A stretch of DNA of 46,266 nucleotides from a virus (taxonomy: Duplodnaviria; Heunggongvirae; Uroviricota; Caudoviricetes), in the IMG/VR virus record IMGVR_UViG_2671180743_000008; one strand, written 5' to 3'. Positions within the stretch are counted from its first letter, which is position 1, and each line of letters opens with the position of its first letter. Shown here one piece after another: positions 27,494-46,076 of this stretch. The notes beneath the pieces were generated by a model. The model was not told where the DNA came from. It searched no databases and saw nothing but the letters and a program-made list of their open reading frames with translations. Both the position numbers and the translations under genes were made by a program.

Positions 27494-27498
27494 AAATT

Positions 27499-29437: not shown

Positions 29438-29450
29438 TTGGTGGAAAAGT

Positions 29451-32207
29451 ATGACAGTAAAAATTTCTGGCGTGCTTAAAGATGGCACAGGAAAACCAGT
29501 ACAGAACTGCACCATTGTGCTGAAGGCCAGACGAACCAGCAGCACGATGGTGGTGAACACGGTGGCCTCTGAAAATCCGGATGAAGCCGGACGTTACAGC
29601 ATGGATGTTGAGCATGGTCAGTACAGCGTCACCCTGCTGGTTGAAGGTTTTCCGCCTTCACATGCCGGGACCATTACCGTCTATGAAGGTTCCAGACCAG
29701 GTACGCTGAATGATTTTCTCGGTGCCATGACGGAGGATGATGTCCGACCGGAGGCACTGCGCCGCTTTGAGCAGATGGTGGAAGAGGTGTCACGTAACGC
29801 CTCCGCGGTTGCACAGAATACGGCAGCCGCGAAAAAATCAGCCAGCGAGGCGGCAACTCATGCAACCGATGCTGCAGCCTCAGCACGTGCCGCCAGCACG
29901 TCAGCCGGACAGGCCGCGTCGTCGGCTCAGTCAGCGTCTTCCAGCGCAGGAACGGCATCGACAAAGGCCCGTGAAGCAGCAAAAAGTGCTGCTGCAGAGT
30001 CATCAAAAAGCGCGGCAGCTACCAGCGCCAGTGCCGCGAAAACGTCAGAAACGAATGCCGCAGCATCACAAAAATCGGCAGCCACTTCTGCATCCACAGC
30101 GACCACGAAGGCGTCAGAAGCTGCCACCTCGGCACGGGGTGCGGCGGCCTCAAAAGAGGCAGCGAAATCTTCAGAAACGAATGCATCATCAAGTGCCAGT
30201 AGTGCAGCTTCCTCGGCAACGGCGGCAGGAAATTCCGCGAAGGCGGCAAAAACGTCCGAGACGAACGCTAAGTCTTCTGAAACAGCAGCGGGACAGAGCG
30301 CCTCAGCTGCGGCAGGTTCAAAAACAGCGGCTGCATTATCTGCCAGTGCCGCGTCAACAAGTGCCGGGCAGGCCTCAGCCAGTGCCACCGCCGCCGGAAA
30401 ATCGGCAGAAAGCGCCGCATCATCCGCTTCAACAGCCACAACGAAGGCTGGCAAAGCCACTGAGCAAGCCACTGCAGCAGCGAGGTCTGCTTCTGCAGCA
30501 AAAACCTCTGAAACAAATGCAAAGACTTCAGCAGACAATGCTGCTTCCTCTAAGGCAGCAGCCGCATCGTCAGCCAGTTCAGCGGCGTCATCGGCATCAT
30601 CTGCGTCTGCTTCAAAAGATGAGGCGACCAGACAAGCGTCAGCAGCGAAAGGTAGTGCCACGACAGCAACAACGAAAGCATCAGAGGCGGCAGGCAGTGC
30701 GACGGCTGCATCTCAGAGCAAAGTTGCTGCTGAATCCGCGGCAACGCGCGCCGAGACAGCAGCAAAACGGGCAGAGGATATTGCATCCGCCGTGGCGCTG
30801 GAGGATGCGAGCACGACGAAAAAGGGGATAGTACAGCTCAGCAGTGCGACCAACAGCACTTCCGAGTCACTGGCGGCAACGCCAAAAGCGGTTAAGGCGG
30901 TAATGGGTGAAACGAACAAGAAAGCGCCCTTAAATAGTCCTGCACTGACCGGAACGCCAACAACACCAACTGCGCGACAGGGAACGAATAATACCCAAAT
31001 CGCAAGCACGGCTTTCGTTATGGCTGCGATTGCCGCCCTTGTAGATTCGTCACCTGATGCACTGAACACGCTGAACGAGCTGGCTGCGGCGCTGGGCAAC
31101 GACCCGAATTTTGCGACCACCATGACTAACGCGCTTGCGGGTAAGCAACCGAAAGATGCCACCCTGACGGCGCTGGCCGGACTTACTACTGCGGCAGGCA
31201 AGTTTCCGTATTTTACGGGGAATGATGTCGCCAGCCTGGCAACCCTGACAAAAGTCGGGCGGGATATTCTTGCGAAATCGACCGTTGCTGCCGTTATCGA
31301 ATACCTCGGTTTACAGGAAACGGTAAACAAGGCTGGTAACGCCGTTCAGCGTTCCGGCGATAAAATGACCGGAGAACTGAAAATTGGCACGGTGAATGCG
31401 CTGCGAATTTTCAATGATACCTTCGGTCTAATTTTCCGTCGTTCAGAAGATTTTCTTCATTTCATTCCGACGGCTGAAGGACAAGGCGAAAACGGTAATA
31501 TCGGCCCATTAAGGCCATTCGCTATAAATCTGAGAACAGGTGCTATATCTGTCAGCCACGGGGCCAAAATTAAAGGAGGTCTAGCTATTGGAGCTACTGA
31601 TAACGCACTGGGTGAAAACTCCATTGTTCTGGGAGATAACGACACCGGATTTAGGCAAGATGGAGATGGTATTATTAGCTTCTATTCAAATGGTTCGCGC
31701 ATCGGACATATTGATGAGTTAGGATTACATCTTTATAAAGATATTGAATCTAATGGCAGCAATTTTAGATTAAAAAGTAATTACCGCCACCACATTACAT
31801 TCGCCAACGAAGACGGAAGAATTCGTATGTTTTTGTGGAAAGATAACGGTGGTGATGGTGTTCATATTAATAACGGTTCAGATGGTGGTGGTGATTTCAT
31901 TTTTAAAACAGATGGGGGATTTGCGCTGGGAAGTGGTGCGCAAGTTGCGTCTAGTGGCGATATTTATGGTTCAGTGTGGGAAAACAACTGGTTAAGCACA
32001 TGGCTGCATAATCATGTCGTTCGGGATATTCGTCTTGGCAGCATTGAATATAAAAACGTATGGCGCGACTACGGCTTTGGCGATGCGTCAGGTTATGTTT
32101 TAACAGCCGCAATTAACAGCAATGCGGATGATATTGTCGACACTGTTGCCAGAAGGCCAATTCAGAAATTGATTGGGGGAATATGGTACAACGTGGGGAG
32201 TGTTTAA
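29451..32207 (+). CDS. stf: Lambdoid side tail fibre protein Stf (tip variant B)
   Basis: 918 aa; long Ala/Ser/Thr-rich repetitive shaft; C-terminal half homologous to H but not identical to copy 1 in the shaft (GIVQLSSATNSTSES versus [15 protein letters not shown]); contains a gix-like site. Confidence 0.85.
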   Translation: MTVKISGVLKDGTGKPVQNCTIVLKARRTSSTMVVNTVASENPDEAGRYSMDVEHGQYSVTLLVEGFPPSHAGTITVYEGSRPGTLNDFLGAMTEDDVRPEALRRFEQMVEEVSRNASAVAQNTAAAKKSASEAATHATDAAASARAASTSAGQAASSAQSASSSAGTASTKAREAAKSAAAESSKSAAATSASAAKTSETNAAASQKSAATSASTATTKASEAATSARGAAASKEAAKSSETNASSSASSAASSATAAGNSAKAAKTSETNAKSSETAAGQSASAAAGSKTAAALSASAASTSAGQASASATAAGKSAESAASSASTATTKAGKATEQATAAARSASAAKTSETNAKTSADNAASSKAAAASSASSAASSASSASASKDEATRQASAAKGSATTATTKASEAAGSATAASQSKVAAESAATRAETAAKRAEDIASAVALEDASTTKKGIVQLSSATNSTSESLAATPKAVKAVMGETNKKAPLNSPALTGTPTTPTARQGTNNTQIASTAFVMAAIAALVDSSPDALNTLNELAAALGNDPNFATTMTNALAGKQPKDATLTALAGLTTAAGKFPYFTGNDVASLATLTKVGRDILAKSTVAAVIEYLGLQETVNKAGNAVQRSGDKMTGELKIGTVNALRIFNDTFGLIFRRSEDFLHFIPTAEGQGENGNIGPLRPFAINLRTGAISVSHGAKIKGGLAIGATDNALGENSIVLGDNDTGFRQDGDGIISFYSNGSRIGHIDELGLHLYKDIESNGSNFRLKSNYRHHITFANEDGRIRMFLWKDNGGDGVHINNGSDGGGDFIFKTDGGFALGSGAQVASSGDIYGSVWENNWLSTWLHNHVVRDIRLGSIEYKNVWRDYGFGDASGYVLTAAINSNADDIVDTVARRPIQKLIGGIWYNVGSV
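31294..31319. other. gix/pix-like crossover site inside stf
   Basis: TTATCGAATACCTCGGTTTACAGGAA, same sequence and orientation as the site in H. Confidence 0.75.
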
Positions 32208-32208
32208 G

Positions 32209-32535
32209 ATGATGCACCTGAAAAATATTAAGGCCGGGAATCCGAAAACACCGGAACAATACCAGCTAACTAAAAAACCGCTGGGATACCTCATTCGCGT
32301 GTCTGAGTGGTGGGAGTTCAACGGCGAACCCGGAACATTCAAGATTGATGTTGGCACGCTGGACAGTGGCGTGACGGAGGAAATGTATCTGGAAATGGAG
32401 CGGTTGATTGCTGATGCCCGCCCGGTCAGCCGCCACATGACAGGGCTGAATATCATTCAGGAGATTCAGGGAGATATTTTCGCGGCAGCAGCAACTTACG
32501 ACGGTGAAGTCATTACCATTTATCCGGACGATTAA
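32209..32535 (+). pseudogene. Chimeric ORF: tfa N-terminus (23 codons) fused in frame to the C-terminal part of gene I
   Basis: [23 protein letters not shown] then PLGYLIRVSEWWEF...ITIYPDD, which is identical to the end of gene I at about 24665..24925; junction at about 32277/32278. Confidence 0.75.
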
Positions 32536-32537
32536 GC

Positions 32538-34451
32538 ATGAGTACCACAACACGAAAATTTAAAACCATTATCACCGATACGGGTGCAAAAAAATTAGCG
32601 CAGGCAACCGCGCCAGATGGGAAACCTGTCCGCCTGACACATATGGCCGTGGGTGACGGCGGCGGTACTTTACCCACGCCAGACAGTAAGCAGACCCGTC
32701 TTGTGCATGAGGTGTGGCGACATACCGTTAATCGCGTCACCCTGGACGCAACACATCAGAACCACATTATTGCGGAGCTGGTTATTCCTCCTGAAACGGG
32801 CGGATTCTGGATCCGGGAAATTGGTGTGTTTGATGAGCACGGCGATTTGATCGCGGTAGGCAATACTGCCGAAAGTTACAAGCCAACCGTTGCCGAAGGA
32901 TCCGGACGTGCACAAACATTTCGCACCATTCTGACCGTATCCAGCACTGCCACTGTGGCGCTTACCGTGGATAACACCATGGTGATGGCCACAGTGAATT
33001 ACGTGGATGACAAACTGAAAGAGCATGAACAGTCACGACGTCACCCGGACGCCTCGCTGACCGCAAAAGGCCTTGTCCAGCTCAGCAACGCCACCAACAG
33101 CACGTCTGAAACGCTGGCAGCGACACCAAAAGCCGTTAAGGCAGTAATGGATGAAACGAACAAGAAAGCCCCATTAAACAGCCCGGCACTGACCGGAACG
33201 CCAACAACACCAACTGCGCGACAGGGAACGAATAATACCCAAATCGCAAGCACGGCTTTCGTTATGGCTGCGATTGCCGCACTTGTAGACTCTTCGCCTG
33301 ATGCACTGAACACACTGAACGAGCTGGCGGCGGCGCTGGGCAACGACCCGAATTTTGCGACCACCATGACTAACGCGCTTGCGGGTAAGCAACCGAAAGA
33401 TGCCACTCTGACGGCGCTGGCGGGGCTTGCTACTGCGGCAGACAGGTTTCCGTATTTTACGGGGAATGATGTCGCCAGCCTGGCAACCCTGACAAAAGTC
33501 GGGCGGGATATTCTTGCGAAATCGACCGTTGCCGCCGTTATCGAATACCTCGGTTTACAGGAAACGGTAAACAAGGCTGGTAACGCCGTTCAGCGTTCCG
33601 GCGATAAAATGACCGGAGAACTGAAAATTGGCACGGTGAATGCGCTGCGAATTTTCAATGATACCTTCGGTCTAATTTTCCGTCGTTCAGAAGATTTTCT
33701 TCATTTCATTCCGACGGCTGAAGGACAAGGCGAAAACGGTAATATCGGCCCATTAAGGCCATTCGCTATAAATCTGAGAACAGGTGCTATATCTGTCAGC
33801 CACGGGGCCAAAATTAAAGGAGGTCTAGCTATTGGAGCTACTGATAACGCACTGGGTGAAAACTCCATTGTTCTGGGAGATAACGACACCGGATTTAGGC
33901 AAGATGGAGATGGTATTATTAGCTTCTATTCAAATGGTTCGCGCATCGGACATATTGATGAGTTAGGATTACATCTTTATAAAGATATTGAATCTAATGG
34001 CAGCAATTTTAGATTAAAAAGTAATTACCGCCACCACATTACATTCGCCAACGAAGACGGAAGAATTCGTATGTTTTTGTGGAAAGATAACGGTGGTGAT
34101 GGTGTTCATATTAATAACGGTTCAGATGGTGGTGGTGATTTCATTTTTAAAACAGATGGGGGATTTGCGCTGGGAAGTGGTGCGCAAGTTGCGTCTAGTG
34201 GCGATATTTATGGTTCAGTGTGGGAAAACAACTGGTTAAGCACATGGCTGCATAATCATGTCGTTCGGGATATTCGTCTTGGCAGCATTGAATATAAAAA
34301 CGTATGGCGCGACTACGGCTTTGGCGATGCGTCAGGTTATGTTTTAACAGCCGCAATTAACAGCAATGCGGATGATATTGTCGACACTGTTGCCAGAAGG
34401 CCAATTCAGAAATTGATTGGGGGAATATGGTACAACGTGGGGAGTGTTTAA
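32538..34451 (+). CDS. H: Tail fibre protein H, copy 2 (recombinant: H copy 1 N-terminus plus stf tip B)
   Basis: 637 aa; identical to copy 1 up to [11 protein letters not shown], then identical to the stf C-terminus ([13 protein letters not shown]...WYNVGSV); the switch coincides with the gix-like site. Confidence 0.85.
33538..33563. other. gix/pix-like crossover site inside H copy 2
   Basis: TTATCGAATACCTCGGTTTACAGGAA, same orientation as the other two intragenic sites. Confidence 0.75.
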
Positions 34452-34452
34452 G

Positions 34453-34980
34453 ATGATGCACCTGAAAAATATTAAGGCCGGGAATCCGAAAACACCGGAA
34501 CAATACCAGCTAACTAAAAAAGCGGGCGTGGTATGGCTCTTTTGCGAAGATGGCAAAAACTGGTATGAGGAACAAAAGAATTTTCAGCCAGACACCATAA
34601 AAATTGCTTACGATGAGAACAACATCATCGTTGCTGTCAGTAAAGACGTTTCAACTATTAATCCTGAAGGGCTAAGCATAGTTGAAGTTCCTGATATTAC
34701 GGCAAATCGTCACGCAGACAATAACGGAAAATGGATGTTTCTGGATGGTAAAGTAGTAAAGAGGGAATATACAGAACAGGAACTGCAACAACAGGCCGAA
34801 TCACAAAAGGCCGCATTGCTTTCCGAAGCTGAATCAGTCATCCAGCCGCTGGAACGCGCTGTCAGGCTGAATATGGCGACGGACGAGGAACGCACACGAC
34901 TGGAAGCATGGGAACGCTACAGTGTTCTGGTCAGCCGTGTGGATACGGCAAATCCTGAATGGCCACAAAAGCCTGAATAA
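34453..34980 (+). CDS. tfa: Tail fibre assembly protein Tfa (partner of tip B)
   Basis: Start at [23 protein letters not shown]; 175 aa; follows H copy 2 with a 1-nt gap. Confidence 0.85.
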
Positions 34981-34984
34981 AAAT

Positions 34985-35004
34985 TAAGGCCCGATAGCGG
35001 GCCT
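34985..35004. terminator. Bidirectional hairpin terminator between convergent tfa genes
   Basis: AAGGCCCGATAGCGGGCCTT lying between the stops of the plus-strand tfa (34980) and the minus-strand tfa (35009). Confidence 0.6.
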
Positions 35005-35008
35005 TCTC

Positions 35009-35542
35009 TCATTCTGGTTGTTCGGGAAACGTTACTGGCAGGCTGGAGGTGTCTGTGGATTCGACCTTCTGCGCATAGAGCATCCACTCGGTTAATTTTT
35101 GTTTATTCTCATCGGAAATGATGCCCAGCTGTAGCTGAGAGTCCCACAGCTGGGTTTTATCCCTGACGAGCTGCAGCAGGCTCTGCTTTTCATTTTCCGC
35201 TTGTTGCCTTTGCTCTTCCTCGGTATAAGTTCGCTTTATCACCGCACCATCTTTGAACATCCAGTTGCCCGAAATATCAGCCCGGCGATTTGCTGTAATA
35301 TCAGGCAACTCAACGACACTTAAACCTTCTGGATTAATTGCTGATACATCCTTGTCTATAGCAATAATTATTCCCTCAACTGTGTAAGCCAGTTTTATTG
35401 TATCCTCCTGAAAGTTTTTTAATTCCTCATGCCAATTTTTTCCATCTTCGGACCATAACCAGATAACATCAAAATTCTTTGTTAGCTGGTATTGTTCAAC
35501 GGTTTTTGGATTACCTGCGACAATGTTTTTTAAATGCTGCAT
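35009..35542 (-). CDS. Tail fibre assembly protein Tfa (inverted orientation, partner of tip C)
   Basis: 177 aa; [23 protein letters not shown]-terminus typical of Tfa; opposite strand to the expressed fibre genes, as in Mu G / e14 P invertible segments. Confidence 0.8.
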
Positions 35543-35694
35543 GATTATACCTGCGATACGTTATACCATGTTCCGTTAATTAACTTTTGTATTGGTCTGA
35601 ATACTGCCGGATCATCACCATCGACTTCACCGATAATACCAAGCCCCGTGATTACATGGCCTGATTTTTCATACATCACGCCTTTCTTCATGGT

Positions 35695-36306
35695 CTAAAC
35701 AACTCGTGTGCCAAGTCTGACATCTCTCACATAGCGGGAATCAAAGTTACCGTAATCCGAGGGATTAACACGTCCCGTAATATTTATGGTTTTATTACTT
35801 TGAATGCTTCCGGAGACAAAGCGCATAACATGGACGTTATTAGCATAAACATCCAGATTACCATCGCCTTTTTGTTTAAAGCCCGTGTCATTATCACCCA
35901 ATACAATCGAATTACCGCCAAGAGCACTGGATGTTCCGATACCCAGTGCACCATTCAGTTGACCACCAGATAACGGCAGTGCACCAACATCTCCTGCTGA
36001 AGGTTTTCTGGTGGTGTAAAATTCGGACCAGTCGGCTTCAAAACCATAACCATCACGGGCTGAACGATAAAAAATACCGCCATTTTTATAATTAATCCGA
36101 AACTGAGCTGCAGGACAACTTCCTTCTCCCATATAAAAATGAATAATTAACGTTGATGCACCACTAATAGTTGCGTTATAGGCTCCGCTACTCCAGTTCC
36201 ATCCAACTGCTTTATCATTCGCAACGGTGCTTCCTGTTTTCCCTAAGGCAAACGCACCAACATGACTTGCTTTTAATGTGATATCGGAGGAACCATCAAA
36301 AGCCAC
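35695..36306 (-). pseudogene. Alternative tail-fibre tip segment (variant C), promoterless and probably frameshifted
   Basis: Fibre C-terminal domain motifs ([26 protein letters not shown]); the frame ends prematurely at ...DVRLGTRVV*, while the expected fibre end (...[17 protein letters not shown]) is encoded in another frame at about 35543..35690. Confidence 0.65.
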
Positions 36307-36453
36307 ATTGCTTATTTTCCTGGCAGTTTTTAATTTTGCAGCTGTAGAAGCATTGCCGGATAGTTCACCAGAAAGGCCACCGCTGAATGTTTGTCGATTA
36401 GTCCAGGTATTCGCTGTACTGAGTAACGGTATTTTCTCCCCGCTTGTGCCGAG

Positions 36454-36479
36454 TTCTCGTAAACCGAGGTTTTAGATAA
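36454..36479. other. gix/pix-like crossover site (inverted orientation), next to the truncated invertase
   Basis: TTCTCGTAAACCGAGGTTTTAGATAA, close to the Mu gix sequence as I recall it (TTCCTGTAAACCGAGGTTTTGGATAA); inverted relative to the three intragenic sites. Confidence 0.75.
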
Positions 36480-36533
36480 TGGCGGTTTCTGGCCTGCATG
36501 GCATGATTTGCGCTTTTGGACGGGAGATTCAGC

Positions 36534-36716
36534 GTGCTGATTGGCTATGTAAGGGTATCAACAAATGACCAGAATACAGACCTGCAACGAAACGCTCTTG
36601 TTTGTGCAGGATATGAACAAATATTTGAAGATAAATTAAGCGGAACAAGGACAGGCCGACCTGGATTAAAACGTGCTTTAAAGCGCCTTCAAAAAGGTGA
36701 CGCACTGGTTGTCTGA
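36534..36716 (+). pseudogene. Truncated Gin/Pin-family serine DNA invertase (N-terminal about 60 codons)
   Basis: GTG start then VLIGYVRVSTNDQNTDLQRNALVCAGYEQIFEDKLSG...KGDALVV*; versus the intact copy a TGG to TGA change gives a premature stop, after which the sequence diverges. Confidence 0.8.
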
Positions 36717-36914
36717 AAACTGGACTGACTGGGTCACTGTATGCGGCATCTTGTCGTGCTGGTGGTGGAAGCCTAGAAAAAGTATCGGGTGTTGCTGAAC
36801 CGTGTTGATACATCAACTGCACCTGATATTGAGTGGCCTACGAACCCTGTCAGGGAGTAATCATTGGGATTATGCCGCAGCACGTCTTAAGCAAGAACGT
36901 GCTGCGGTTGGATG

Positions 36915-37583
36915 CTATTTTTTCCCTGAAGCGGAAAACATTACTACAGTACCTTGAACCCTGGTTTTAACATTCTCGAAATGCTCTGAGAGTATATGTG
37001 TTAAGCCTTCTTCGGAATCTTTTGTGTTTGAAAAGATGCCTTTCTGATTGTAAATGCGCATCAGTTTTTGACCGAAGCTATTGTGCACAACTCCATCGCC
37101 AAGAATTGTGGCTCCGTATAGAGTTCCATCAATTAATTTTTGTTTATTCTCGTCGGAAATAATGCCCAGCCGTAGCTGTGAGTCCCATAGCTGGGTTTTA
37201 TCCCTGACGAGCTGTAGCAGGCTTTGCTTTTCATTTTCCGCTTGTTGCCTCTGCTCTTCCCCGGTATAAGTTCGCTTTATCACTACGCCATCTTTGAACA
37301 TCCATTTACCTGAAATATCAGCCCGGCGATTTGCTGTAATATCAGGAACCTCAACGACGCTTGCGCCTTCCGGATTAATTGCTGAAACATCCTTTTCAAT
37401 ACAAATAATAACGCCGTTGTGGTCATAGACCATTTTCAACGTATCAGGCTGAAAGTTCTTTTGTTCCTCATACCAGTTTTTCCCATCCTCTGTATAAAGC
37501 CATTTGATGTTAAATTGTTTCGTTAGCTGGTATTGCTCTTTTGTTTCAGGATTACCAGCAGAAATGTTTTTTAAGTGCATCAT
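36915..37583 (-). CDS. Tail fibre assembly protein Tfa (inverted orientation, partner of tip D), atypical C-terminus
   Basis: 222 aa; the first 160 or so residues are Tfa-like ([22 protein letters not shown]...); the last 45 or so are unrelated to other Tfa ends and run into the deletion scar next to the truncated invertase. Confidence 0.7.
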
Positions 37584-37585
37584 CG

Positions 37586-38329
37586 TTAAATACTCCCCGC
37601 GTTATACCACGTCCCATTAATGCAATACTGAATTGGCCTTGCCTGAGTTGTATCAATTAGTTCATCTCTGTTTGAGTTAACGGAACCGGTAACAACATAA
37701 CCTGACCTGTCAGACCATCCGGGACCATTCCATGTCTGAACAGATAACAGACCACCAAGGCGAATACCTGTAATAAACCTTGAGTTACATTCTGCCTGCG
37801 TATATGCACCAACATCTCCCGCAGAGGGTTTGCGGGTTGTGGTGTAAAACTCTGACCAGTCAGCTTCAAAGCCATAACCATCACGCGCTGAACGATAAAA
37901 AATACCGCCGTTCCTGTAATTCACGCGGAACTGTACAGCAGGGCAGCTCCCCGTATTCATATTGAAGTGGAGGATTAATGTCGATGCGCCACCAATGTTT
38001 GCGTTATAGACCCCGCTATTCCAGTTCCAGCCAACAGCTTTATCATTTCCGACAGTGCTTCCTGTTTGCCCTAAAGCAAATGCAGGTTGTTGATTTTTCG
38101 TGTTGTAGTCTCGTCGCCAGCCAGGAGCGTAAGCATCACCATGATTAATATAAGTGAATTGAGCGTTAGTAATTCCGCCACCGCTGGACGTGCTCGGCGT
38201 GGTAACGCGTATGGTCATTGCGCCGCGAGTGCCAATAACTTCCACCACAGCACCTGCAAGACAAATATTTCCGCAACCTGTATCTGTAATGACCTTATTA
38301 TTTGCATAAGCCCATGAGCCTTTGCACAT
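37586..38329 (-). CDS. Alternative tail-fibre tip segment (variant D), promoterless
   Basis: 247 aa listed; fibre tip ending ...[17 protein letters not shown] immediately upstream of its tfa; the open frame probably continues up to the crossover site at about 38530. Confidence 0.7.
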
Positions 38330-38530
38330 CCAGTAAGGATGGTTAAATGCTCCCTGACTCTCCAGCCACGAAATAAATTGCGCGGTTGTCCAGACCTGAC
38401 TATCGCCACCAATATTCAGCCATGAGCTATATGCGCGGCAGGCACCAATATTTTTGGTGAAGGTATCTTTCCCCGGAATATCTGCGCCGTTCTGGTTTTT
38501 CTGTAATGCGCCAGAAGCCTGATTTACCGT

Positions 38531-38556
38531 TTCCTGTAAACCGAGGTTTTAGATAA
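38531..38556. other. gix/pix-like crossover site (inverted orientation), next to the intact invertase
   Basis: TTCCTGTAAACCGAGGTTTTAGATAA; the 55 bp that follow match the leader of the truncated invertase copy. Confidence 0.8.
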
Positions 38557-38610
38557 TGGCCGTTTCCGGCCTGCATGGCATGATTTGCGCTTTTGGACGG
38601 GAGATTCAGC

Positions 38611-39198
38611 GTGCTGATTGGCTATGTAAGGGTATCAACAAATGACCAGAATACAGACCTGCAACGAAACGCTCTTGTTTGTGCAGGATGTGAACAAATA
38701 TTTGAAGATAAATTAAGCGGGACAAAGACAGACCGACCGGGATTAAAACGCGCTTTAAAGCGCCTTCAAAAAGGTGACACGCTGGTTGTCTGGAAACTGG
38801 ATCGCCTCGGGCGAAGCATGAAACATCTGATTTCTCTCGTCGGGGAACTACGGGAGCGAGGAATTAATTTTCGCAGTCTGACCGACAGCATAGATACATC
38901 TTCTCCAATGGGGCGTTTTTTCTTCCACGTGATGGGTGCCCTGGCTGAAATGGAACGTGAATTAATTGTTGAACGTACACTGGCCGGACTGGCGGCAGCA
39001 CGCGCACGGGGGCGCACAGGCGGACGTCGACCGAAGCTGACAAAAGAACAGCATGAGCAAATAGCAAGGCTGATCAAAAACGGGCACGACAGAAAACAAC
39101 TGGCAATAATTTACGGCATTGGTATATCGACGATTTATCGTTACCACCCCGCAGGAGAATCAATCGGAACAATAGAGAAGAGTCAGGAAACAAAATAA
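38611..39198 (+). CDS. pin: Gin/Pin/Hin-family serine DNA invertase
   Basis: GTG start; VLIGYVRVSTNDQNTDLQRNALVCAGCEQIFEDKLSGTKTDRPGLKRALKRLQKGDTLVVWKLDRLGRS with the catalytic Ser in the YVRVST motif; C-terminal HTH; closely resembles Mu Gin / e14 Pin. Confidence 0.9.
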   Translation: MLIGYVRVSTNDQNTDLQRNALVCAGCEQIFEDKLSGTKTDRPGLKRALKRLQKGDTLVVWKLDRLGRSMKHLISLVGELRERGINFRSLTDSIDTSSPMGRFFFHVMGALAEMERELIVERTLAGLAAARARGRTGGRRPKLTKEQHEQIARLIKNGHDRKQLAIIYGIGISTIYRYHPAGESIGTIEKSQETK

Positions 39199-39233: not shown

Positions 39234-39728
39234 TCAGAACAACCCTTTAACTGAACTGGCCGCGCTGTTAAGGGATGATGTTACCTTATCTTTGAAGCCG
39301 GACAGCATATCGCTGAACGATGAGGATTGCAGGCGCTCCCGCAAATCCTCATCACAGCGTTCAAGAGTCAGTGAAAATTCTATCTTTTTCGCCTTACCGT
39401 AGCGATCAAACTCGGAGCGGGTCGTATTCGTTTCGGTCAGGACATACATGCCGTAAATCTGCCCGACGCCATCAATCAGAGGCCAGGGTCGTCCTGTATA
39501 CGCCTGCGTGGTCAGCAGCGACAGCGACACTTCGCCACCTGTAATTTCAGGATAAAGCACACCAGAAAGAACGATGCGCTCATCACCTGCACCGATATAC
39601 TGCCAGCTTGCCGAACGGTTAACGCGTTCATTTTTCACATGCCGCCAGCTTTTGTTTTGCTGTAACTGCTGATGCGGCAATGTACGCAGCTCAAAAACAA
39701 ACATGCCGTAGATCATCATCATGGCCAT
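39234..39728 (-). CDS. U: Tail protein U
   Basis: 164 aa; N-terminus (IYGMFVFELRTLPHQQLQQNKSWRH ... LSGVLYPEITGG) resembles P2 gpU. Confidence 0.8.
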   Translation of the reverse strand: MAMMMIYGMFVFELRTLPHQQLQQNKSWRHVKNERVNRSASWQYIGAGDERIVLSGVLYPEITGGEVSLSLLTTQAYTGRPWPLIDGVGQIYGMYVLTETNTTRSEFDRYGKAKKIEFSLTLERCDEDLRERLQSSSFSDMLSGFKDKVTSSLNSAASSVKGLF

Positions 39729-39734
39729 GACTCC

Positions 39735-42578
39735 TCAATCTTTATCGTAAAAACTGCCACGCCCGGCACGGGCGCGCCGTTCCATTTCTGCCCTGACCAT
39801 TTCACCGACCAGTTTCGCCAGTTCGCGGGGATTCTGCGTAACAACGTTATGCAGATGAACATGAATTTCACCACCAAATCCGGAGGCAACAGGCTCCCGG
39901 TTACGGGAAGTTACAGGAACTGATGCCACTGGAGAGCGTATGGCCTCCGCCACCGGGCGGGAGCTGGCCGCAACAACAGGGACCAGCGCCGGAGGCAGCG
40001 GAGCCGGGACCACGGGTGTGATATTAATTGCGGGGGCAGGCTTACTGACCTGCGCAATCTTCCGCTCCTGCCACTCCCCACGAACAGCAAGTGCGCGGGG
40101 CAGGTTCTTAAAGACAATATCGCCGGGGCCAATGCGTTTTTTCGTCTCATCAACCAGCTTACCTGTGTTATCAGCAATTTTGCTGAGTCTGCGTAGCGTC
40201 CCGGTATTGCTGTCTGTGAGCGGTTTGTTGTCTTTGGGTTTATCACCTCCGGTGCCATTGCCATTTTCCACAGGCTTCGGCGGATTGATTTTCGCCAGGT
40301 CCCCCTGAAGCAAGGCAACCTTGTCCTGAAGAATGGCCGCACGCTGTGCGTCTTCGATTTTCTTGCGCGCCCTTTCCGCTTCATCCGGAAGGACGCCAAG
40401 TTTTTCAAGTATCCACGCCAGCGTATCCAGTAGCATTTTTGCAGGTGTCAGAACAAGTTGTAACGCACCGCCAAGAACGTTACCGAATATCTCGCCAGCA
40501 CTGGCACATTTATCCAGCGTTTCCTTGCTGGACTCCATCGGTGACAGCAGCGATTTAAACCAGTTAAAGACCTGAATAATCCCATCGCGCACGACATCAA
40601 AAACAGGGCCAAACCGTTCAAAGGTTTCGCGCAACGGGGTCAGCCTTTCCATAATCCCGCTGAACACCCCGGCAAAAAATGCCCTGATGGGATCCCAGTA
40701 TTTCCAGATAAGAACGGCAGCTCCGGCAAGCGCAGCCACGATAAGACTAACCGGACTGAACAGCGCCCCGATAGCGCCACCAAGTAAAGAAACGGAACCC
40801 GTCACCATTCCCCATAATGCAGGCAGAACCCTGACAACATTCATTGATTCGGTCAGGAGAGAAAAACCGAGACGCAACGTAGCCAGCTTCCCGTGAAGCA
40901 CCCCAATAACCAGAGACAACGAACCAACCGTTGCTGTTGTCGCCAGCAGTGCGCCTCCCGCTATCAGTAACTGGCGCGTCAGTGCCGGGTGGGCCTGCGC
41001 CAGCGCCGTCACCTTTGAGACAACCCGCGTGAGCCACTGCGTGACAGAACGCAGCGGACCGTCAACCAGATCACTGATGCGAATACGCAGACCTTCCCAT
41101 GCACTGCCGAGTGATTTCAGGTTGCCATCAAGGTTATTGGCCATAACCTTTGCCGTGCGTTCTGCCTCACCGCGCGCGCCTTCAAGTTCTTTTCTCAGTT
41201 TGGCTAAGAAGCCGTCACCTGCCGCATCAACGAGGCCCATAAATGATGTGAAAGCCTCTTCTCCGGCAATGTCCTTAAAGAACGATACCCGGTCAACCTC
41301 CCCGTATTTGCGGGTGGCTTTATAGAGATCGGCCAGCACATTCTCCATCGGGCGCATTTTGCCTTTGGCGTCAGCAACTGACACCCCCAGCTCTTTCAGT
41401 GCTTCTGCCGCTGCCTTTGGCGGTGATGACAGATTGGCCAGGCTTTTACGCAACGCTGTACCTGCATCACTCCCCCTGATACCCATCTTCGCCAGCACGC
41501 CCGCCATCGCTGCGGCCTGCTCCAGCGATATTCCCAGCTTACCCGCCACCGGACCTGCATATTTCATGGTTTCGCCCAGTGCGCGAAGGTCAGTGTTGGT
41601 ACGGGTAAACGCTGCGGTAAGTGTGTCACCGACCCGGTCCATCTGGTCAGCAGAGAGGCCGAACTGCGTCAGGATATTGGAACCAATATCCGCCGTCTCG
41701 CCGAGGTCCATACCGCCAGCCGTTGCCATGCTCAGCACGCCGGGAAGCGCAGCCTGAATGGCCTGCGGTGTGAAACCAGCCATTGCAAGAAATGCCTGTC
41801 CACTGGCGGCATCGCCTGCGGTGAACTGCGTTTCAGAGCCAAGTTTTAACGCCTGCTCACGCAGCGCCTTAAACTGCGGGCTGTTTTTATCGATTCGCGT
41901 CAGTGCCTGAACACGGGACATCTCTTTCCCGAACCCGATAGCGGGCTGCAAAAAACGCCCGGCAGCATAGCCGCCCGCTGCCGCCGCACCTGTTGCCAGC
42001 GCACCACCTGTTTTCAGTTTTCCCGCTGTTTCCTGCGCGCGTGAATACCGCTCACGCGCCTGCGTTACACGCGCAAGCGCCCGCCGTTCGCGTTCAAGCT
42101 GGTTGTTGTATTGTCCGGTGCGTCTGATGGCCTGCTGGATGGTGTTATCGCTGCCTGTCAGGGAAATGCCGTGGCGTTTCAGCTCTCCGCCAAGTTCCCG
42201 CATTTTCTGAATTTCCCGTGTGCGCGATTCATTCAGGCGTTCAAGCCGGGTGCTTAACTGCTGCATCAGCTTTTGTTGTTTTTCGCTGAGCACTGTACCC
42301 GTGCGTTGTAACTGATTAAGGGCGTTAAGCTGGCGTCGTGCTTTCACGATGCCCGCATCCGCTTTACTGACAGCGTCACGGGCGCGCTCAAATGAACGCG
42401 CCTGACGCTCGAGATTTTTGATCGCCCCCTGCGTTCGCTGGATGGAGTCACCAAACTGCCCCATCAGGCGGCGGGCGTTTTCGGCAGGCCGGGTCAGCCT
42501 GTCAACGGCGCTGAAAGCGACCCGGATATCAAGAGTCTTCATTGTCTGCATTCCCGCTGCGAAGTGCCGCCCGCTCAC
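39735..42578 (-). CDS. T: Tail tape-measure protein T
   Basis: 947 aa; long alpha-helical, Ala/Gly-rich with hydrophobic central segments; lies between E and U as in P2. Confidence 0.85.
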   Translation of the reverse strand: MSGRHFAAGMQTMKTLDIRVAFSAVDRLTRPAENARRLMGQFGDSIQRTQGAIKNLERQARSFERARDAVSKADAGIVKARRQLNALNQLQRTGTVLSEKQQKLMQQLSTRLERLNESRTREIQKMRELGGELKRHGISLTGSDNTIQQAIRRTGQYNNQLERERRALARVTQARERYSRAQETAGKLKTGGALATGAAAAGGYAAGRFLQPAIGFGKEMSRVQALTRIDKNSPQFKALREQALKLGSETQFTAGDAASGQAFLAMAGFTPQAIQAALPGVLSMATAGGMDLGETADIGSNILTQFGLSADQMDRVGDTLTAAFTRTNTDLRALGETMKYAGPVAGKLGISLEQAAAMAGVLAKMGIRGSDAGTALRKSLANLSSPPKAAAEALKELGVSVADAKGKMRPMENVLADLYKATRKYGEVDRVSFFKDIAGEEAFTSFMGLVDAAGDGFLAKLRKELEGARGEAERTAKVMANNLDGNLKSLGSAWEGLRIRISDLVDGPLRSVTQWLTRVVSKVTALAQAHPALTRQLLIAGGALLATTATVGSLSLVIGVLHGKLATLRLGFSLLTESMNVVRVLPALWGMVTGSVSLLGGAIGALFSPVSLIVAALAGAAVLIWKYWDPIRAFFAGVFSGIMERLTPLRETFERFGPVFDVVRDGIIQVFNWFKSLLSPMESSKETLDKCASAGEIFGNVLGGALQLVLTPAKMLLDTLAWILEKLGVLPDEAERARKKIEDAQRAAILQDKVALLQGDLAKINPPKPVENGNGTGGDKPKDNKPLTDSNTGTLRRLSKIADNTGKLVDETKKRIGPGDIVFKNLPRALAVRGEWQERKIAQVSKPAPAINITPVVPAPLPPALVPVVAASSRPVAEAIRSPVASVPVTSRNREPVASGFGGEIHVHLHNVVTQNPRELAKLVGEMVRAEMERRARAGRGSFYDKD

Positions 42579-43058
42579 GCCAGCTAACCACTTCGCCGGG
42601 CGTCATCATGAAGATTTCGGCGGGCGACCAGTTAAAAATGGCGGCAATATCCGCCACAAAGTCTTCTATGTGCTCAAAGCACACAACCGTGATCAGGCTT
42701 CCGTCGCCTGTTCGTTCTTCTCGCCAGAGTCCGCACCGCTCAAAAAATTTACGGCAACCACACATAACTGAATAAAGTCACGGGATGCCATTTTTTTGAT
42801 CGTCACTTCATCCAGTCGCGGTGATGTCACGCGTGACAGCAGCGTAAACATGGATTCCGCTTTCAAATTCAGCACATCAGACAGCGACAAATCTCGCAGA
42901 GATCCAGCCTGCTCAATAGCCCCGGTGATCTCCACATACGTGATTTTTTCGCCGCCTCGCTCAATTGGTTGGGTAAGTTTTACGCCACGCTCACTGGTTT
43001 CTTTCACAGTGTCAGCAACGACCGTGTTTTCGGTATCGATGTTTTTCGTCTCTTTCAT
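42529..43058 (-). CDS. E': Tail assembly chaperone E+E' (-1 programmed frameshift product)
   Basis: The -1 frame is open from the slippery site at 42741..42747 to the stop at 42529; by coordinate arithmetic the frame relationship is -1; same heptamer as I recall for P2 E/E'. Confidence 0.6.
42693..43058 (-). CDS. E: Tail assembly chaperone E
   Basis: 121 aa; ends ...AVNFLSGADSGEKNEQATEA; contains the slippery heptamer U UUU UUG (minus strand, 42747..42741). Confidence 0.8.
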   Translation of the reverse strand: MKETKNIDTENTVVADTVKETSERGVKLTQPIERGGEKITYVEITGAIEQAGSLRDLSLSDVLNLKAESMFTLLSRVTSPRLDEVTIKKMASRDFIQLCVVAVNFLSGADSGEKNEQATEA

Positions 43059-43112
43059 CAGGAAACTCCTTTCAGTCAGAGGCGACGCACTGCGCCGCCT
43101 GCATATTACTTA

Positions 43113-43625
43113 TCAGCCAAGCCCGAGCGCGGAACGGATGCGATCGGGCACAATGTCCCTGCCGTCCTTCCGGTAAATGAAGTTCAGCAGGTCAATCTCC
43201 CACAACGGGCGATCGTTAACACTCAGCTTGTAGTAGGTGTTTTTAATGGCGTAAGTGTGTGATGTGGCTTCGCCCTGTTTGGCTTCCCCCATATCAATTT
43301 CCGTCACACGTCCGCGCATTTCGACTTCATACAGGTCGCTTTCAGCGTCGGTGTAGTATTCACCCGCAAAACGCAGCAGCGTACCGTCAATCGTGCCGCC
43401 ATACTTAAGGAACAGCTCACGAACTGCGCCCCCCATGACAAAGCTCGCATCAAGCGCGGAGTCATCCAGGCCGAGATCAATACTTACCGCTCCCATCATG
43501 CCACCACCCCGGTAGCTGTCGGTTTTGCGCGTCAGCTTAGGCAGAGTGACGGACGTCACCTTACCCACTTCGTTTTCACCATCCACAAACAGCGTAAAAA
43601 AGCGAAGATGTTTTGGTACAGCCAT
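43113..43625 (-). CDS. FII: Tail tube protein FII
   Basis: 170 aa; immediately downstream of FI; P2 gpFII size. Confidence 0.85.
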   Translation of the reverse strand: MAVPKHLRFFTLFVDGENEVGKVTSVTLPKLTRKTDSYRGGGMMGAVSIDLGLDDSALDASFVMGGAVRELFLKYGGTIDGTLLRFAGEYYTDAESDLYEVEMRGRVTEIDMGEAKQGEATSHTYAIKNTYYKLSVNDRPLWEIDLLNFIYRKDGRDIVPDRIRSALGLG

Positions 43626-44809
43626 CAGGCACCTCCCAGCACCGCAAATGCGGGACCAAAGAATTCATCAGTAAACGACTGGTAAAGCTCCATGTCTTCC
43701 AGCGGGGGAACAGGCGTATATTTGTAGCGAATACGCACGCGCCCCTGACGTAAATTCGTGGTGCCGTTATCCACCACGTCATACCAGCACGACGCCCCAA
43801 TCAGTTTCCCGGCAGTAACCAGTGAATCCAGTTTTGCCCTGATGGCACCGATAACATCCTTCACGTTCGCAGGCGTCAGTGGACTGTCGATGGTTTCAAA
43901 CTGCGCTTCCGCAATTGAATCAGCCAGCACCTGTGCGGTTCGGGTATACACCTCAAAGATGTAGGCGTTCGTTTCCGGTGTGCGGTTGCCCCAGAAGCGG
44001 AACCCGTTGCGACGAATAATGGTCGTGATTTCTTTGTTGTTGAGGCTGTTGGCATCACTGTCTTCGGCCTGCAACGACCAGAACACATGCCTGGACATCC
44101 CCAGCACATTTTTAACCGGAACGTTGGACAGCGATTTGTGCCAGCCCTGCTCATGGTCAATGTACGCACGAAGGCCGCACGCATAGGCAGGCGCGGGGAA
44201 CGTTTCGTTTTTGCCACTTTTCGGGTTGTAGGCGATGAAGTCCGGCCATAAGAGCATCACCTCACGTTCGTTGAATTTCTGGCGGTAGGTAATTGCCTCA
44301 GCCATCGTGTTACAGTCATGACATGAGGCATACACAAACGCGCGCAGTTTACCCGCAATCACGCACAGGGATTTTGTCACCGCCTCCGTGTCCAGCTCCG
44401 GCGCGGCCAGAATACGCGGACGGTATCCGATGCTTTCATCCTGCTCTGCAACAAGCAGCGCATACATCCCCGTATAGCTGCCGTCAGATTCAGAACCACC
44501 GATAACCAGTTGATCCTGCGTTTTTCCGTCTTCTTCTTTGTGTTCAGCCACGCGAACGACGATCACCTTTGTGCTCACCTGGTCTGCGATGGCCTTAAGC
44601 GCACGATAAAGCGTCCCCGTTGTTCCGCATTTTCCCAGCACGTCATTGACGCGGGGCAGCAGTGTGGGCTTGTTCAGCGGGAACAGCTCCGCGTCCGCAT
44701 CATCCGCCGTTGCCACGATACCGATAACGCTGGAATCAACATCGTTAATCGCTGTTACCAGGTCGGTATTTTCCGTAACACGGGCACCATGAAAACGAGT
44801 TTCACTCAT
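43625..44809 (-). CDS. FI: Tail sheath protein FI
   Basis: 394 aa; P2 gpFI size; first gene of the FI-FII-E-T-U block. Confidence 0.88.
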   Translation of the reverse strand: MSETRFHGARVTENTDLVTAINDVDSSVIGIVATADDADAELFPLNKPTLLPRVNDVLGKCGTTGTLYRALKAIADQVSTKVIVVRVAEHKEEDGKTQDQLVIGGSESDGSYTGMYALLVAEQDESIGYRPRILAAPELDTEAVTKSLCVIAGKLRAFVYASCHDCNTMAEAITYRQKFNEREVMLLWPDFIAYNPKSGKNETFPAPAYACGLRAYIDHEQGWHKSLSNVPVKNVLGMSRHVFWSLQAEDSDANSLNNKEITTIIRRNGFRFWGNRTPETNAYIFEVYTRTAQVLADSIAEAQFETIDSPLTPANVKDVIGAIRAKLDSLVTAGKLIGASCWYDVVDNGTTNLRQGRVRIRYKYTPVPPLEDMELYQSFTDEFFGPAFAVLGGA

Positions 44810-44966
44810 AGCTTCAACCCCTTGTATCCGTTAAATGATTCGGCAACAATCATCACCCACCACGCGCGTAATCTCACCCCTGCGCCATTCTCCCGCCACG
44901 GCGACAACAAAAAGCAGTAACCCCCTCCGCACGCACATGCGACCATGCCACACAGGGAGGGAGCAG

Positions 44967-46076
44967 ATGACCGACACCACCATGCAATTGCTCAGTCAGG
45001 GCACAGACCCCGTGAAAATGCCGGATTTTGATATTCTCGCGGAGGGTAAAACGCTGTCAGGCGTGGCAGAGCGCCTGATGAGCCTGTCACTGACCGACAA
45101 CCGGGGATTTGAGGCGGACCAGCTCACCATCACGCTGGATGATGCGGATGGTCAGTTGCAGCTACCGCCACGGGGCGCGCGCCTGACGGTTCTCATTGGC
45201 TGGAAGGGAGAACCGCTGACAGAAAAAGGCACTTACATTGTTGATGAAATCGCTCACGAAGGACCGCCGGACAGGCTGACTGTTTCAGCCAGAAGCGCAG
45301 ATTTTCGGGCTGAATTTAACGTTAAACGTGAGGTGTCCTGGCATGATGTGACCGTTGAGCGTGTGGTATCCGCCATCGCTCATCGGTATGGTCTGAAACC
45401 GCAAATCAGCGAAATGCTGATGGATATCGAAATCGACCACGCCGACCAGACCGAAGAAAGCGACATGTCCTTCCTTACGCGCATGGCGGAAATGCTGGGC
45501 GCAATCACCACGGTAAAAAGCGGTAATCTGTTATTCATCATGCCCGGTGGTGGCGTGAACGCACAGGGCCAGCCGTTGCCCTCGTTCGCCATCACACGCA
45601 GCAGCGGCGATCGCCATCAGTTCCGCATTGCTGACCGCGAAGCGTATACGGGGGTACGCGCTTACTGGCTTGATCTTAATTACGGGAAAAAGAAAAAAGT
45701 CAGCGTGAAACGCCGCAAACCGTCAAAACCAAAAAAGGAGAAAAGCAGCAGCCGGGAAGGCGACTATATGGAAGGTGCGGAAGGCAACGTGTTTGTGTTA
45801 CGCAAAACTTATCAGAACGAGCAGGCAGCAAGACGTGCAGCGGCGGCAAAGTGGCAGCAGCTACAACGCGGAGCCGCATCATTCTCCATCACACTGGCGC
45901 ATGGACGTGCAGAACTCTACCCCGAAATGCATGGCACGGTAACAGGATTTAAAAGCGAGATTGATAATCAGGACTGGATTATTGCAAAAGCCGAGCACAC
46001 CATTGATAACAGCGGCTTTACCACGCAGCTTGAGCTTGAGGCAAAAATCCCGGAATGGATAGCAGAAACAGAGTGA
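44967..46076 (+). CDS. D: Tail protein D (late gene D)
   Basis: Start at MTDTTMQ, preceded by GGGAGGGAG; 369 aa; position matches P2 gpD except that it is divergent from FI here. Confidence 0.8.
   Translation: MTDTTMQLLSQGTDPVKMPDFDILAEGKTLSGVAERLMSLSLTDNRGFEADQLTITLDDADGQLQLPPRGARLTVLIGWKGEPLTEKGTYIVDEIAHEGPPDRLTVSARSADFRAEFNVKREVSWHDVTVERVVSAIAHRYGLKPQISEMLMDIEIDHADQTEESDMSFLTRMAEMLGAITTVKSGNLLFIMPGGGVNAQGQPLPSFAITRSSGDRHQFRIADREAYTGVRAYWLDLNYGKKKKVSVKRRKPSKPKKEKSSSREGDYMEGAEGNVFVLRKTYQNEQAARRAAAAKWQQLQRGAASFSITLAHGRAELYPEMHGTVTGFKSEIDNQDWIIAKAEHTIDNSGFTTQLELEAKIPEWIAETE

What the first reader, a model, noticed from the sequence alone, without database searches (positions are those of the whole stretch)
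42529..43058. Programmed -1 frameshift site in the tail chaperone gene E (T TTT TTG)
On the minus strand, gene E contains the heptamer U UUU UUG (plus-strand CAAAAAA at 42741..42747) nine codons before its stop. The -1 frame is open from there to 42529. This is the arrangement known for P2 E/E' and is analogous to lambda G/GT. The coordinate arithmetic confirms the overlapping frame is -1 relative to E.
Basis: partly seen in the sequence, partly recalled or inferred. Interest (0 to 1): 0.35.

Follow-up and report, generated by a model that had tools for sequence, protein, structure and literature searches.

The report
P2-type tail chaperone frameshift site
This is the well-known programmed -1 ribosomal frameshift that makes the long form (E+E') of the tail assembly chaperone in P2-like phages, here in a common P88-like E. 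coli prophage: an ordinary feature, although public annotations record E' as a separate small gene.

Summary
On the minus strand, gene E (43058..42693, 121 aa) contains T TTT TTG at 42747..42741 in the phase xxT TTT TTG. The -1 frame is open from 42777 to the stop at 42531..42529. The heptamer lies 15 sense codons before the E stop, not nine. The conceptual 176-aa fusion aligns end to end with P2 gpE+E' (E=3e-25), and the junctions coincide. Its C-terminal part is a Pfam Phage_P2_GpE domain (E=9.7e-12). The genes lie between tail tube (FII) and tape measure (T), and E' overlaps the T start by 14 nt. The heptamer alone is not rare. The support is comparative. E' is in the -1 frame in 221 of the 222 related viral loci where it was detected, and in 77 of 80 species genomes. 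T TTT TTN sits at the same place while the preceding amino acid varies (P, G, N, S, D) and its third base stays T. Substitution periodicity switches from frame 0 to frame -1 exactly at the heptamer. One refinement: the window carries a compound run, A AAT TTT TTG. The sister clade (active phage PhiSM) has T TTT ATG and keeps only A AAT TTT, so the shift may also occur one codon earlier. No stimulatory RNA structure was found. Verdict: a new member of a known kind, of low interest.

The parts
42693..43058 (-). Gene E, the short zero-frame tail assembly chaperone (121 aa). ATG at 43058, preceded by AGGAG at 43070..43066; stop TGA at 42695..42693.
   Evidence: ORF list; sequence; phrog_103 tail protein E=1.8e-35; aligns with P2 gpE; PF10109 Phage_TAC_7 only 17.2 bits, below the cut-off of 25.
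42741..42747 (-). P2-type slippery heptamer T TTT TTG. Zero frame is AAT TTT TTG = N104 F105 L106.
   Evidence: Same phase and same aligned position as the annotated P2 frameshift site. In phase in 101 of 117 distinct family overlap sequences as T TTT TTN.
42744..42750 (-). Overlapping in-phase heptamer A AAT TTT, one codon upstream. With the previous part it forms the 10-nt run A AAT TTT TTG (42750..42741).
   Evidence: It is the only in-phase heptamer left in the sister clade, which reads A AAT TTT ATG. Motifs of the class R_RR.U_UU.Y / H_HH.U_UU.Y are reported as efficient -1 shifters in E. coli (PMC4066793).
42529..42741 (-). E' extension in the -1 frame: 70 codons from GAG (42741..42739) to the stop TGA at 42531..42529. 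It contains the GpE domain.
   Evidence: translation; PF06528 E=9.7e-12 on fusion residues 135-170; phrog_1756 E=7.9e-39. Substitutions fall on -1-frame third positions from the heptamer onward.
42529..43058 (-). Predicted E+E' fusion product, 176 aa: 43058..42741 in frame 0, then 42741..42529 in frame -1, with base 42741 read twice.
42778..42780 (-). TGA that closes the -1 frame upstream. The shift must occur between here and the E stop (42777..42693).
   Evidence: It also rules out the upstream A7 run (42797..42791) as a productive shift site in this window.
39735..42542 (-). Tape measure gene T. The ATG at 42542 overlaps the end of E' by 14 nt.
   Evidence: PF10145 PhageMin_Tail E=1.4e-57; start as annotated in P88 and in RefSeq E. 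coli.
43113..43625 (-). Tail tube gene FII, immediately upstream of E.
   Evidence: PF04985 Phage_tube E=1.9e-46.

Best explanation
The locus is the E / E+E' tail assembly chaperone pair of a P2-like (Peduoviridae, Xuanwuvirus, P88-like) prophage. Most ribosomes translate E in frame 0 and stop at 42693, giving the 121-aa gpE. A minority slip back one nucleotide within the run A AAU UUU UUG (42750..42741) and continue in the -1 frame to 42529. This gives a 176-aa gpE+E' that shares its first 105-106 residues with gpE and ends in the conserved GpE domain. The slip can occur with tRNA-Phe in the P site and tRNA-Leu in the A site on U UUU UUG, as in P2, giving the junction ...NFL-ERCG. It can also occur one codon earlier, with tRNA-Asn in the P site and tRNA-Phe in the A site on A AAU UUU, giving ...NFF-ERCG. 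By analogy with lambda G/GT and P2 E/E+E', both proteins act as chaperones of the tape measure protein T during tail assembly, and frameshift efficiency fixes their ratio. Shown here: anatomy, homology, phase, conservation and the frame of selective constraint. Inferred: that the shift happens, its efficiency, which codon pair is used, and the chaperone role.
For: (1) The window is 98% identical to phages P88 and 500465-2 over this region. Gene order FI, FII, E, E', T, U is confirmed by Pfam. (2) The fusion aligns with P2 gpE+E' across both parts, E=3e-25, with coincident junctions. In the P2 record the site is annotated as a -1 translational frameshift. The literature places the P2 shift at TTTTTTG, giving a 91-aa E and a 142-aa E+E' (PMC3091744). 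(3) E' carries PF06528. (4) E' is in the -1 frame relative to E in 221 of the 222 viral loci where it was detected (223 loci analysed, including the window) and in 77 of 80 species-level genomes. (5) Among 117 distinct overlap sequences, 101 carry in-phase T TTT TTN (G 92, A 7, C 2). The preceding codon is CCT, GGT, AAT, AGT or GAT, so the amino acid differs but the third base is always T. With the codon usage of this operon, an F-L pair preceded by a T-ending codon would read T TTT TTG with probability about 0.012 per lineage. (6) In 95 distinct sequences of this and two neighbouring clades, variable sites peak at frame-0 third positions before the heptamer (41/33/71). They peak at -1-frame third positions both in the E/E' overlap just after it (6/3/11) and in the E'-only part (13/8/26). 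Within the heptamer only one site varies (pairwise version). (7) The sister clade, which includes the active phage PhiSM (PMC6456863), has T TTT ATG. In the three members whose -1 frame is open for only 88 nt, the only in-phase heptamer is A AAT TTT. Other lineages have C CCT TTC or G GGT TTC at the same one-codon-upstream position. (8) Other in-phase heptamers in the tail genes lead to short -1 ORFs of 3-43 codons.
Against: There is no direct evidence of the fusion protein. In one sequence the heptamer is only weakly improbable (about 0.1). No stimulatory element was found: the downstream 62 nt fold no better than shuffles (z=+1.13; the 111-nt fold gave z=-1.5) and there is no Rfam match. This agrees with what is reported for P2, but means efficiency cannot be argued from structure. 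U_UU.U_UU.G is not among the motifs listed as most efficient in E. coli (PMC4066793). Public records of P88-like phages and RefSeq E. coli annotate E' as an independent 51-aa CDS starting at GTG 42684.
Confidence: 0.9

Rival explanations
1. E' is a separate small gene, translated on its own from GTG 42684 (51 aa) as in the public annotations, with no frameshift.
For: P88, PhiR44_2 and RefSeq E. coli records annotate it this way: 'GpE family phage tail protein', 156 nt. A GTG is present at the corresponding place in the two nearest clades.
Against: No Shine-Dalgarno sequence lies at a usable distance before GTG 42684. Constraint in the -1 frame begins at the heptamer, 57 nt upstream of that GTG. 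In the overlap the -1 peptide is better conserved than the zero-frame tail: by my count from the translations, 10 of 16 positions are invariant against 5 of 15 across three clades. The heptamer and its phase are conserved in lineages whose flanks have diverged. In the homologous P2 gene the record annotates a -1 translational frameshift joining E and E' (PMC3091744).
Confidence: 0.04
2. The fusion arises by transcriptional slippage: RNA polymerase adds one U in the T6 run and the edited mRNA is read normally.
For: A homopolymeric T6 run is present. Sequence databases contain fused variants with length changes in this run and in the upstream A7 run (P0025, P0048, P0057, P0058), which shows the runs are indel-prone at least in sequencing or assembly.
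Against: From my own knowledge, not checked here, efficient polymerase slippage in bacteria usually needs longer runs than six. The sister clade has only T4 at the site (AAATTTTATG) yet keeps E' 98% identical and includes an active phage. What is conserved is the codon phase (X XXY YYZ) and not only run length, with variants T TTT TTA/C, C CCT TTC and G GGT TTC. Phase matters to the ribosome but not to the polymerase.
Confidence: 0.04
3. The prophage is defective here and the overlap is a decaying remnant, so no E+E' is made and none is needed.
For: The window's tail-fibre region is unusual (a duplicated H gene with a lambdoid insert), so this prophage copy may not be fully functional.
Against: All tail ORFs from FI to U are intact. 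The region is 98-99.5% identical to inducible phage P88 and to prophages in about a quarter of complete E. coli genomes (1374 of 5426). The -1 frame has no stop over 70 codons.
Confidence: 0.02

Closest known systems
Bacteriophage P2 gpE / gpE+E' (FETUD tail operon; Christie et al. 2002, cited in PMC3091744 and PMC5009743)
   Same: Same position between FII and T. Same heptamer T TTT TTG in the same codon phase at the aligned residue pair F-L. E' is in the -1 frame with a GpE (PF06528) domain, and its stop overlaps the T start. No downstream hairpin. The fusion proteins align end to end (31% identity, E=3e-25).
   Different: E is 121 aa against 91, with a clade-specific N-terminal extension of about 22 aa. 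There are 15 rather than 6 zero-frame codons after the heptamer. The linker is about 10 aa longer, giving a fusion of 176 aa against 142. The overlap with T is 14 nt against 8. An additional in-phase heptamer (A AAT TTT) abuts the P2-type one. In this genus the FI..U block and gene D are on opposite strands, unlike the P2 F-E-T-U-D order.
Lambda gpG / gpGT and the general tail assembly chaperone frameshift of tailed phages (Levin 1993; Xu, Hendrix and Duda 2004, 2013, 2014; as summarised in PMC5009743)
   Same: Two overlapping ORFs between the major tail gene and the tape measure gene. A -1 slip near the end of the first ORF. Short and long products share an N-terminus. The presumed role is a fixed-ratio chaperone pair for the tape measure.
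   Different: No detectable sequence similarity. The slippery sequence is different (from my own knowledge, lambda uses G GGA AAG). Here the tail is contractile, whereas lambda's is non-contractile.
P2-like Burkholderia phages KS5, KS14 and KL3 (PMC3091744)
   Same: The E/E+E' frameshift was predicted there from conservation of TTTTTTG, with no downstream hairpin. The argument and outcome are the same as here.
   Different: Different hosts and low identity. Those genomes were annotated with the joined E+E' CDS, whereas P88-like records are not.

Membership tests
P2 gpE / gpE+E' tail chaperone pair | Located between the tail tube gene (FII) and the tape measure gene (T) of a contractile-tail module. 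| tested here: met
   PF04985 on 43113..43625, PF10145 on 39735..42548, sheath domains on 43625..44809 and PF06995 GpU on 39234..39728.
P2 gpE / gpE+E' tail chaperone pair | The zero-frame protein is homologous to gpE (Pfam PF10109 Phage_TAC_7). | tested here: inconclusive
   The Pfam hit is below the cut-off (17.2 bits against 25, E=0.0053). Pairwise BLASTP to P2 gpE+E' nevertheless covers residues 23-106 of E within an alignment of E=3e-25. A 46%-identical relative (P0066) carries PF10109. phrog_103 gives E=1.8e-35. Homology is therefore accepted, although the curated Pfam threshold is not reached.
P2 gpE / gpE+E' tail chaperone pair | The extension carries the GpE domain (PF06528). | tested here: met
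   44.6 bits against a cut-off of 23, E=9.7e-12, on fusion residues 135-170.
P2 gpE / gpE+E' tail chaperone pair | The extension ORF is in the -1 frame and overlaps the 3' end of E. | tested here: met
   The same holds in 221 of 222 related viral loci and 77 of 80 species genomes.
P2 gpE / gpE+E' tail chaperone pair | An in-phase slippery heptamer T TTT TTG at the E/E' junction. | tested here: met
   42747..42741, phase AAT TTT TTG, aligned with the P2 site. Conserved across the family.
P2 gpE / gpE+E' tail chaperone pair | The end of E' overlaps the start of T. | tested here: met
   E' stop at 42531..42529 and T ATG at 42542, a 14-nt overlap; P2 has 8 nt.
P2 gpE / gpE+E' tail chaperone pair | A frameshifted fusion protein is actually produced and is needed for tail assembly. 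| not testable with these tools
   This needs proteomics, a reporter assay or genetics.
Lambda G/GT-type tail assembly chaperone frameshift (functional class) | Two overlapping ORFs between the major tail gene and the tape measure gene, joined by a programmed -1 (rarely +1) shift near the end of the first. | tested here: met
Lambda G/GT-type tail assembly chaperone frameshift (functional class) | Sequence or fold similarity to a solved or characterised tail assembly chaperone. | tested here: inconclusive
   No PDB sequence match (best E=0.7, unrelated SoxA). The AlphaFold2 model was too poor for a fold search (mean pLDDT 47).

The most novel reading that the evidence does not exclude
In this genus the frameshift site is not simply the P2 heptamer. 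The window carries a tandem, overlapping pair (A AAU UUU | U UUU UUG). A substantial share of shifts may occur on the upstream A AAU UUU, giving Phe rather than Leu at the junction. The abundant sister clade (PhiSM, 520873, 503458) has lost the P2 heptamer altogether (T TTT ATG) and relies on A AAU UUU alone. Together with the C CCU UUC and G GGU UUC variants in other lineages, this would document repeated one-codon migration of a programmed frameshift site within one gene family.
Probability: 0.5. Interest if true: 0.3.

Novelty: new member of a known kind. Interest (0 to 1): 0.15.

Why it matters
The value is mainly for annotation. This prophage family occurs in about a quarter of complete E. 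coli genomes (1374 of 5426). Both RefSeq and phage records list E' as a free-standing 51-aa 'GpE family' gene rather than as the -1 extension of E, so the real 176-aa product is missing from protein databases. Biologically it is another instance of the conserved tail chaperone frameshift. The small added value is the compound slippery run, and the natural T-to-A variant in the sister clade, which offers a ready-made comparison of two heptamers in the same context.

Tried and rejected
- Downstream stimulatory RNA: folding 62 nt after the heptamer gave z=+1.13 for the window. Seven of the eight representatives folded, the window included, were no better than shuffles; only one distant locus (L215) has a strong hairpin, z=-3.8. 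A 111-nt fold gave z=-1.5. I rejected a conserved stimulator.
- Rfam at gathering thresholds gave no match in the whole window, and no tRNAs were found.
- NCBIfam gave no hit for E or the fusion.
- PDB sequence search gave nothing relevant.
- AlphaFold2 on a 17-sequence alignment of database fusions and E homologues gave mean pLDDT 47 and pTM 0.27, which is unusable. I ran no fold search.
- The upstream A7 run (42797..42791) was considered as an alternative shift site, because database proteins P0048, P0057 and P0058 are fused there. I rejected it for this window: the -1 frame from it stops after 4 codons at TGA 42780..42778. Three sister-clade loci are also closed there.
- No promoter-like site lies inside the operon segment 42300..45000.
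A narrower one worked.
- The Christie et al. 2002 paper is not in the held library, so statements about P2 rest on the P2 record and on PMC3091744.
- An SD-like element upstream of the heptamer was looked for by eye. P2 and some relatives have AAGGTGG 5 nt upstream, but the window has nothing convincing. I did not pursue it.
Full report
**What is in the sequence**

Read on the minus strand, 43058..42693 is a 121-aa ORF, here called E. It is preceded by AGGAG at 43070..43066. Near its 3' end the sequence is GTA AAT TTT TTG AGC, with TTTTTTG at 42747..42741. In the frame of E the phase is xxT TTT TTG, which fits the X XXY YYZ rule for tandem -1 slippage.

After a TGA at 42780..42778, the -1 frame is open from 42777. 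From the last base of the heptamer it runs 70 codons to TGA at 42531..42529. The one error is the distance to the E stop: fifteen sense codons (SGADSGEKNEQATEA) follow TTG, not nine.

**Is it more than chance?**

Taken alone, it is not. TTTTTTG occurs 26 times in the window against 14.7 expected. The five tail genes contain six in-phase X XXY YYZ heptamers in about 1790 codons. One falling in the 29-codon overlap therefore has a probability of roughly 0.1. The other four in-phase heptamers lead to -1 ORFs of only 3 to 43 codons. The case rests on context and comparison.

**Context**

- The region is 98% identical to the inducible phage P88 and to phage 500465-2 (Peduoviridae, genus Xuanwuvirus).
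- Relatives occur in 1374 of 5426 complete E. coli genomes.
- Pfam identifies sheath FI (44809..43625), tube FII (43625..43113), tape measure T (from ATG 42542 to 39735) and GpU (39728..39234).
- E and the -1 ORF therefore sit exactly where tailed phages encode their frameshifted chaperone pair.

**Homology**

The conceptual fusion is E residues 1-106 plus 70 residues of the -1 frame, 176 aa in total.

- It aligns with P2 gpE+E' over both parts (31% identity, E=3e-25). The junction NFL|E lies opposite P2's GFL|V.
- The extension matches PF06528 Phage_P2_GpE (44.6 bits, cut-off 23) and phrog_1756.
- E matches phrog_103 (E=1.8e-35). It reaches only 17.2 bits against PF10109, whose cut-off is 25.
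- In the P2 record the site is annotated as a -1 translational frameshift at GGT TTT TTG, in the same phase as here.
- PMC3091744 states that the P2 shift at TTTTTTG yields a 91-aa E and a 142-aa E+E', with no downstream hairpin.

**Comparative evidence**

I fetched 218 related viral loci and 80 loci from species-representative genomes, and analysed them with scripts.

- E' is in the -1 frame relative to E in 221 of the 222 loci of the viral set where it was detected (223 analysed, including the window and annotated phage records), and in 77 of 80 genomes.
- Among 117 distinct overlap sequences, 101 carry in-phase T TTT TTN (G 92, A 7, C 2).
- The codon before the heptamer is CCT, GGT, AAT, AGT or GAT. 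The amino acid changes but the third base is always T.
- With this operon's codon usage, an F-L pair preceded by a T-ending codon would be T TTT TTG only about 1.2% of the time.

**Which frame is under selection?**

I compared 95 distinct sequences from this clade and its two nearest neighbours.

| Region | Variable sites at codon positions 1/2/3 | Frame counted |
|---|---|---|
| Before the heptamer (E only) | 41/33/71 | frame 0 |
| Overlap just after the heptamer | 6/3/11 | frame -1 |
| E'-only part | 13/8/26 | frame -1 |

Within the heptamer itself only one site varies. Pairwise comparisons show the same switch. By my count from the translations, the -1 peptide in the overlap (ERCGLWREERTGDGSL) has 10 of 16 positions invariant across three clades, against 5 of 15 for the zero-frame tail.

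This argues that translation of the -1 frame starts at the heptamer. It argues against the GTG at 42684 that P88, PhiR44_2 and RefSeq records use for a separate 51-aa 'GpE family' CDS.

**A refinement**

The window's run is A AAT TTT TTG (42750..42741). It holds two overlapping in-phase heptamers, A AAT TTT and T TTT TTG.

- The sister clade (about 87% nucleotide identity) includes phages 520873 and 503458 and the active Citrobacter phage PhiSM (PMC6456863).
- That clade reads A AAT TTT ATG, so the P2 heptamer is broken, yet E' is 98% conserved.
- In the three members whose -1 frame is open for only 88 nt, A AAT TTT is the only in-phase heptamer.
- Other lineages carry C CCT TTC or G GGT TTC at the same one-codon-upstream position.
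- Sharma et al. (PMC4066793) report that UUY in the A site shifts better than UUG or UUA in E. coli. They also report that R_RR.U_UU.Y and H_HH.U_UU.Y motifs are efficient, while U_UU.U_UU.G is not in their high-efficiency list for E. coli.

In this window the shift may therefore occur on either codon pair. The two products are both 176 aa and differ at one residue: ...NFL-ER or ...NFF-ER.

**Stimulators and alternatives**

- The 62 nt downstream fold no better than shuffled sequence (z=+1.13). Six of the seven relatives folded likewise showed nothing.
- Rfam has no match. This agrees with what is reported for P2.
- Transcriptional slippage is unlikely. The conserved property is codon phase, and the sister clade has only T4 at the site.
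- The upstream A7 run cannot serve here, because the -1 frame from it stops after four codons.

**Mechanism**

Shown:

- Two overlapping frames, with the P2-type heptamer in phase.
- Homology of both parts to P2 gpE+E'.
- Family-wide conservation of site and phase.
- A switch of coding constraint at the site.
- An overlap between E' and the T start.

Inferred:

- A minority of ribosomes slip -1 in the U-rich run and make gpE+E'.
- gpE and gpE+E' act as a fixed-ratio chaperone pair for the tape measure, by analogy with P2 and with lambda G/GT (PMC5009743).

**Verdict**

This is a new member of a well-known kind and of low surprise. Its practical value is to correct a systematic annotation gap. 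There is also a minor lead about a compound or migrating slippery site.

**Dead ends**

- NCBIfam gave no hit.
- The PDB sequence search gave nothing relevant.
- The structure model was unusable, with mean pLDDT 47.
- Christie et al. 2002 was not available in the library.

Noticed in passing
window 24928..34980: The tail-fibre region looks chimeric. Two P2-H-like fibre genes (24928..26964 and 32538..34451, both PF12571 + PF03406) are separated by a lambdoid block: a gpJ C-terminal fragment (27526..28632), lom (28700..29299, PF06316 E=1e-125) and an stf-like side tail fibre (29451..32207, PF08400). The stf C-end (about 31290..32277) repeats the H C-end (about 33534..34521). No complete E. coli genome holds 26400..33000 contiguously at 80% coverage or more, so this is a rare recombinant or an assembly artefact.
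   Followed up: partly
window 34417..39198: An invertible tail-fibre cassette system. Alternative fibre C-termini and tail-fibre-assembly genes lie on the minus strand (35009..35542, 35695..36306, 36915..37583, 37586..38329), next to a Hin/Gin-type serine invertase (38593..39198, PF00239 E=1.5e-50). Inverted repeats sharing the core TTCCTGTAAACCGAGGTTT lie at 31290-31349 and 33534-33593 against 38501-38560 and 36454-36485. These are probable crossover sites.
   Followed up: partly
window 44835..46076 (+) versus 44809..39234 (-): The gpD-like hub gene (PF05954) is on the opposite strand from FI-FII-E-E'-T-U, unlike the P2 F-E-T-U-D operon. The same arrangement is seen in P88 and in RefSeq E. 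coli prophages, so it is a feature of the genus and not of this window alone.
   Followed up: partly
window 42657..42638 (-): A terminator-like hairpin with a U-run (GTGGCGGATATTGCCGCCATTTTT) lies inside the E' coding region (peptide ADIAAIF), about 84 nt downstream of the heptamer and just before T. It may merely reflect the conserved peptide; I did not test it as an attenuator.
   Followed up: no
window 42797..42791 (-), and relatives L003, L085 and others: An A7 run (ATC AAA AAA ATG) lies 15 codons upstream of the heptamer. Several database proteins of the sister clade (P0048, P0057, P0058, the last with 15 members) are E-E' fusions created by a length change in this run. P0025 is fused by a change in the T run. 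These are probably homopolymer sequencing or assembly errors, but real indel variants are not excluded.
   Followed up: partly
window 41955..41949 (-) and 42024..42018 (-): A second in-phase T TTT TTG and a G GGA AAA lie inside the tape measure gene T. Their -1 frames stop after 20 and 43 codons with no recognisable domain, so they are probably chance.
   Followed up: partly
L004 (P2) 670..678, and L258, L260, L215: P2 and several relatives have an SD-like AAGGTGG or GAGGTGA a few nucleotides upstream of TTTTTTG, which recalls the upstream SD-like stimulator I remember from dnaX. The window (GTGGTTGCCGTA) has nothing convincing there.
   Followed up: no
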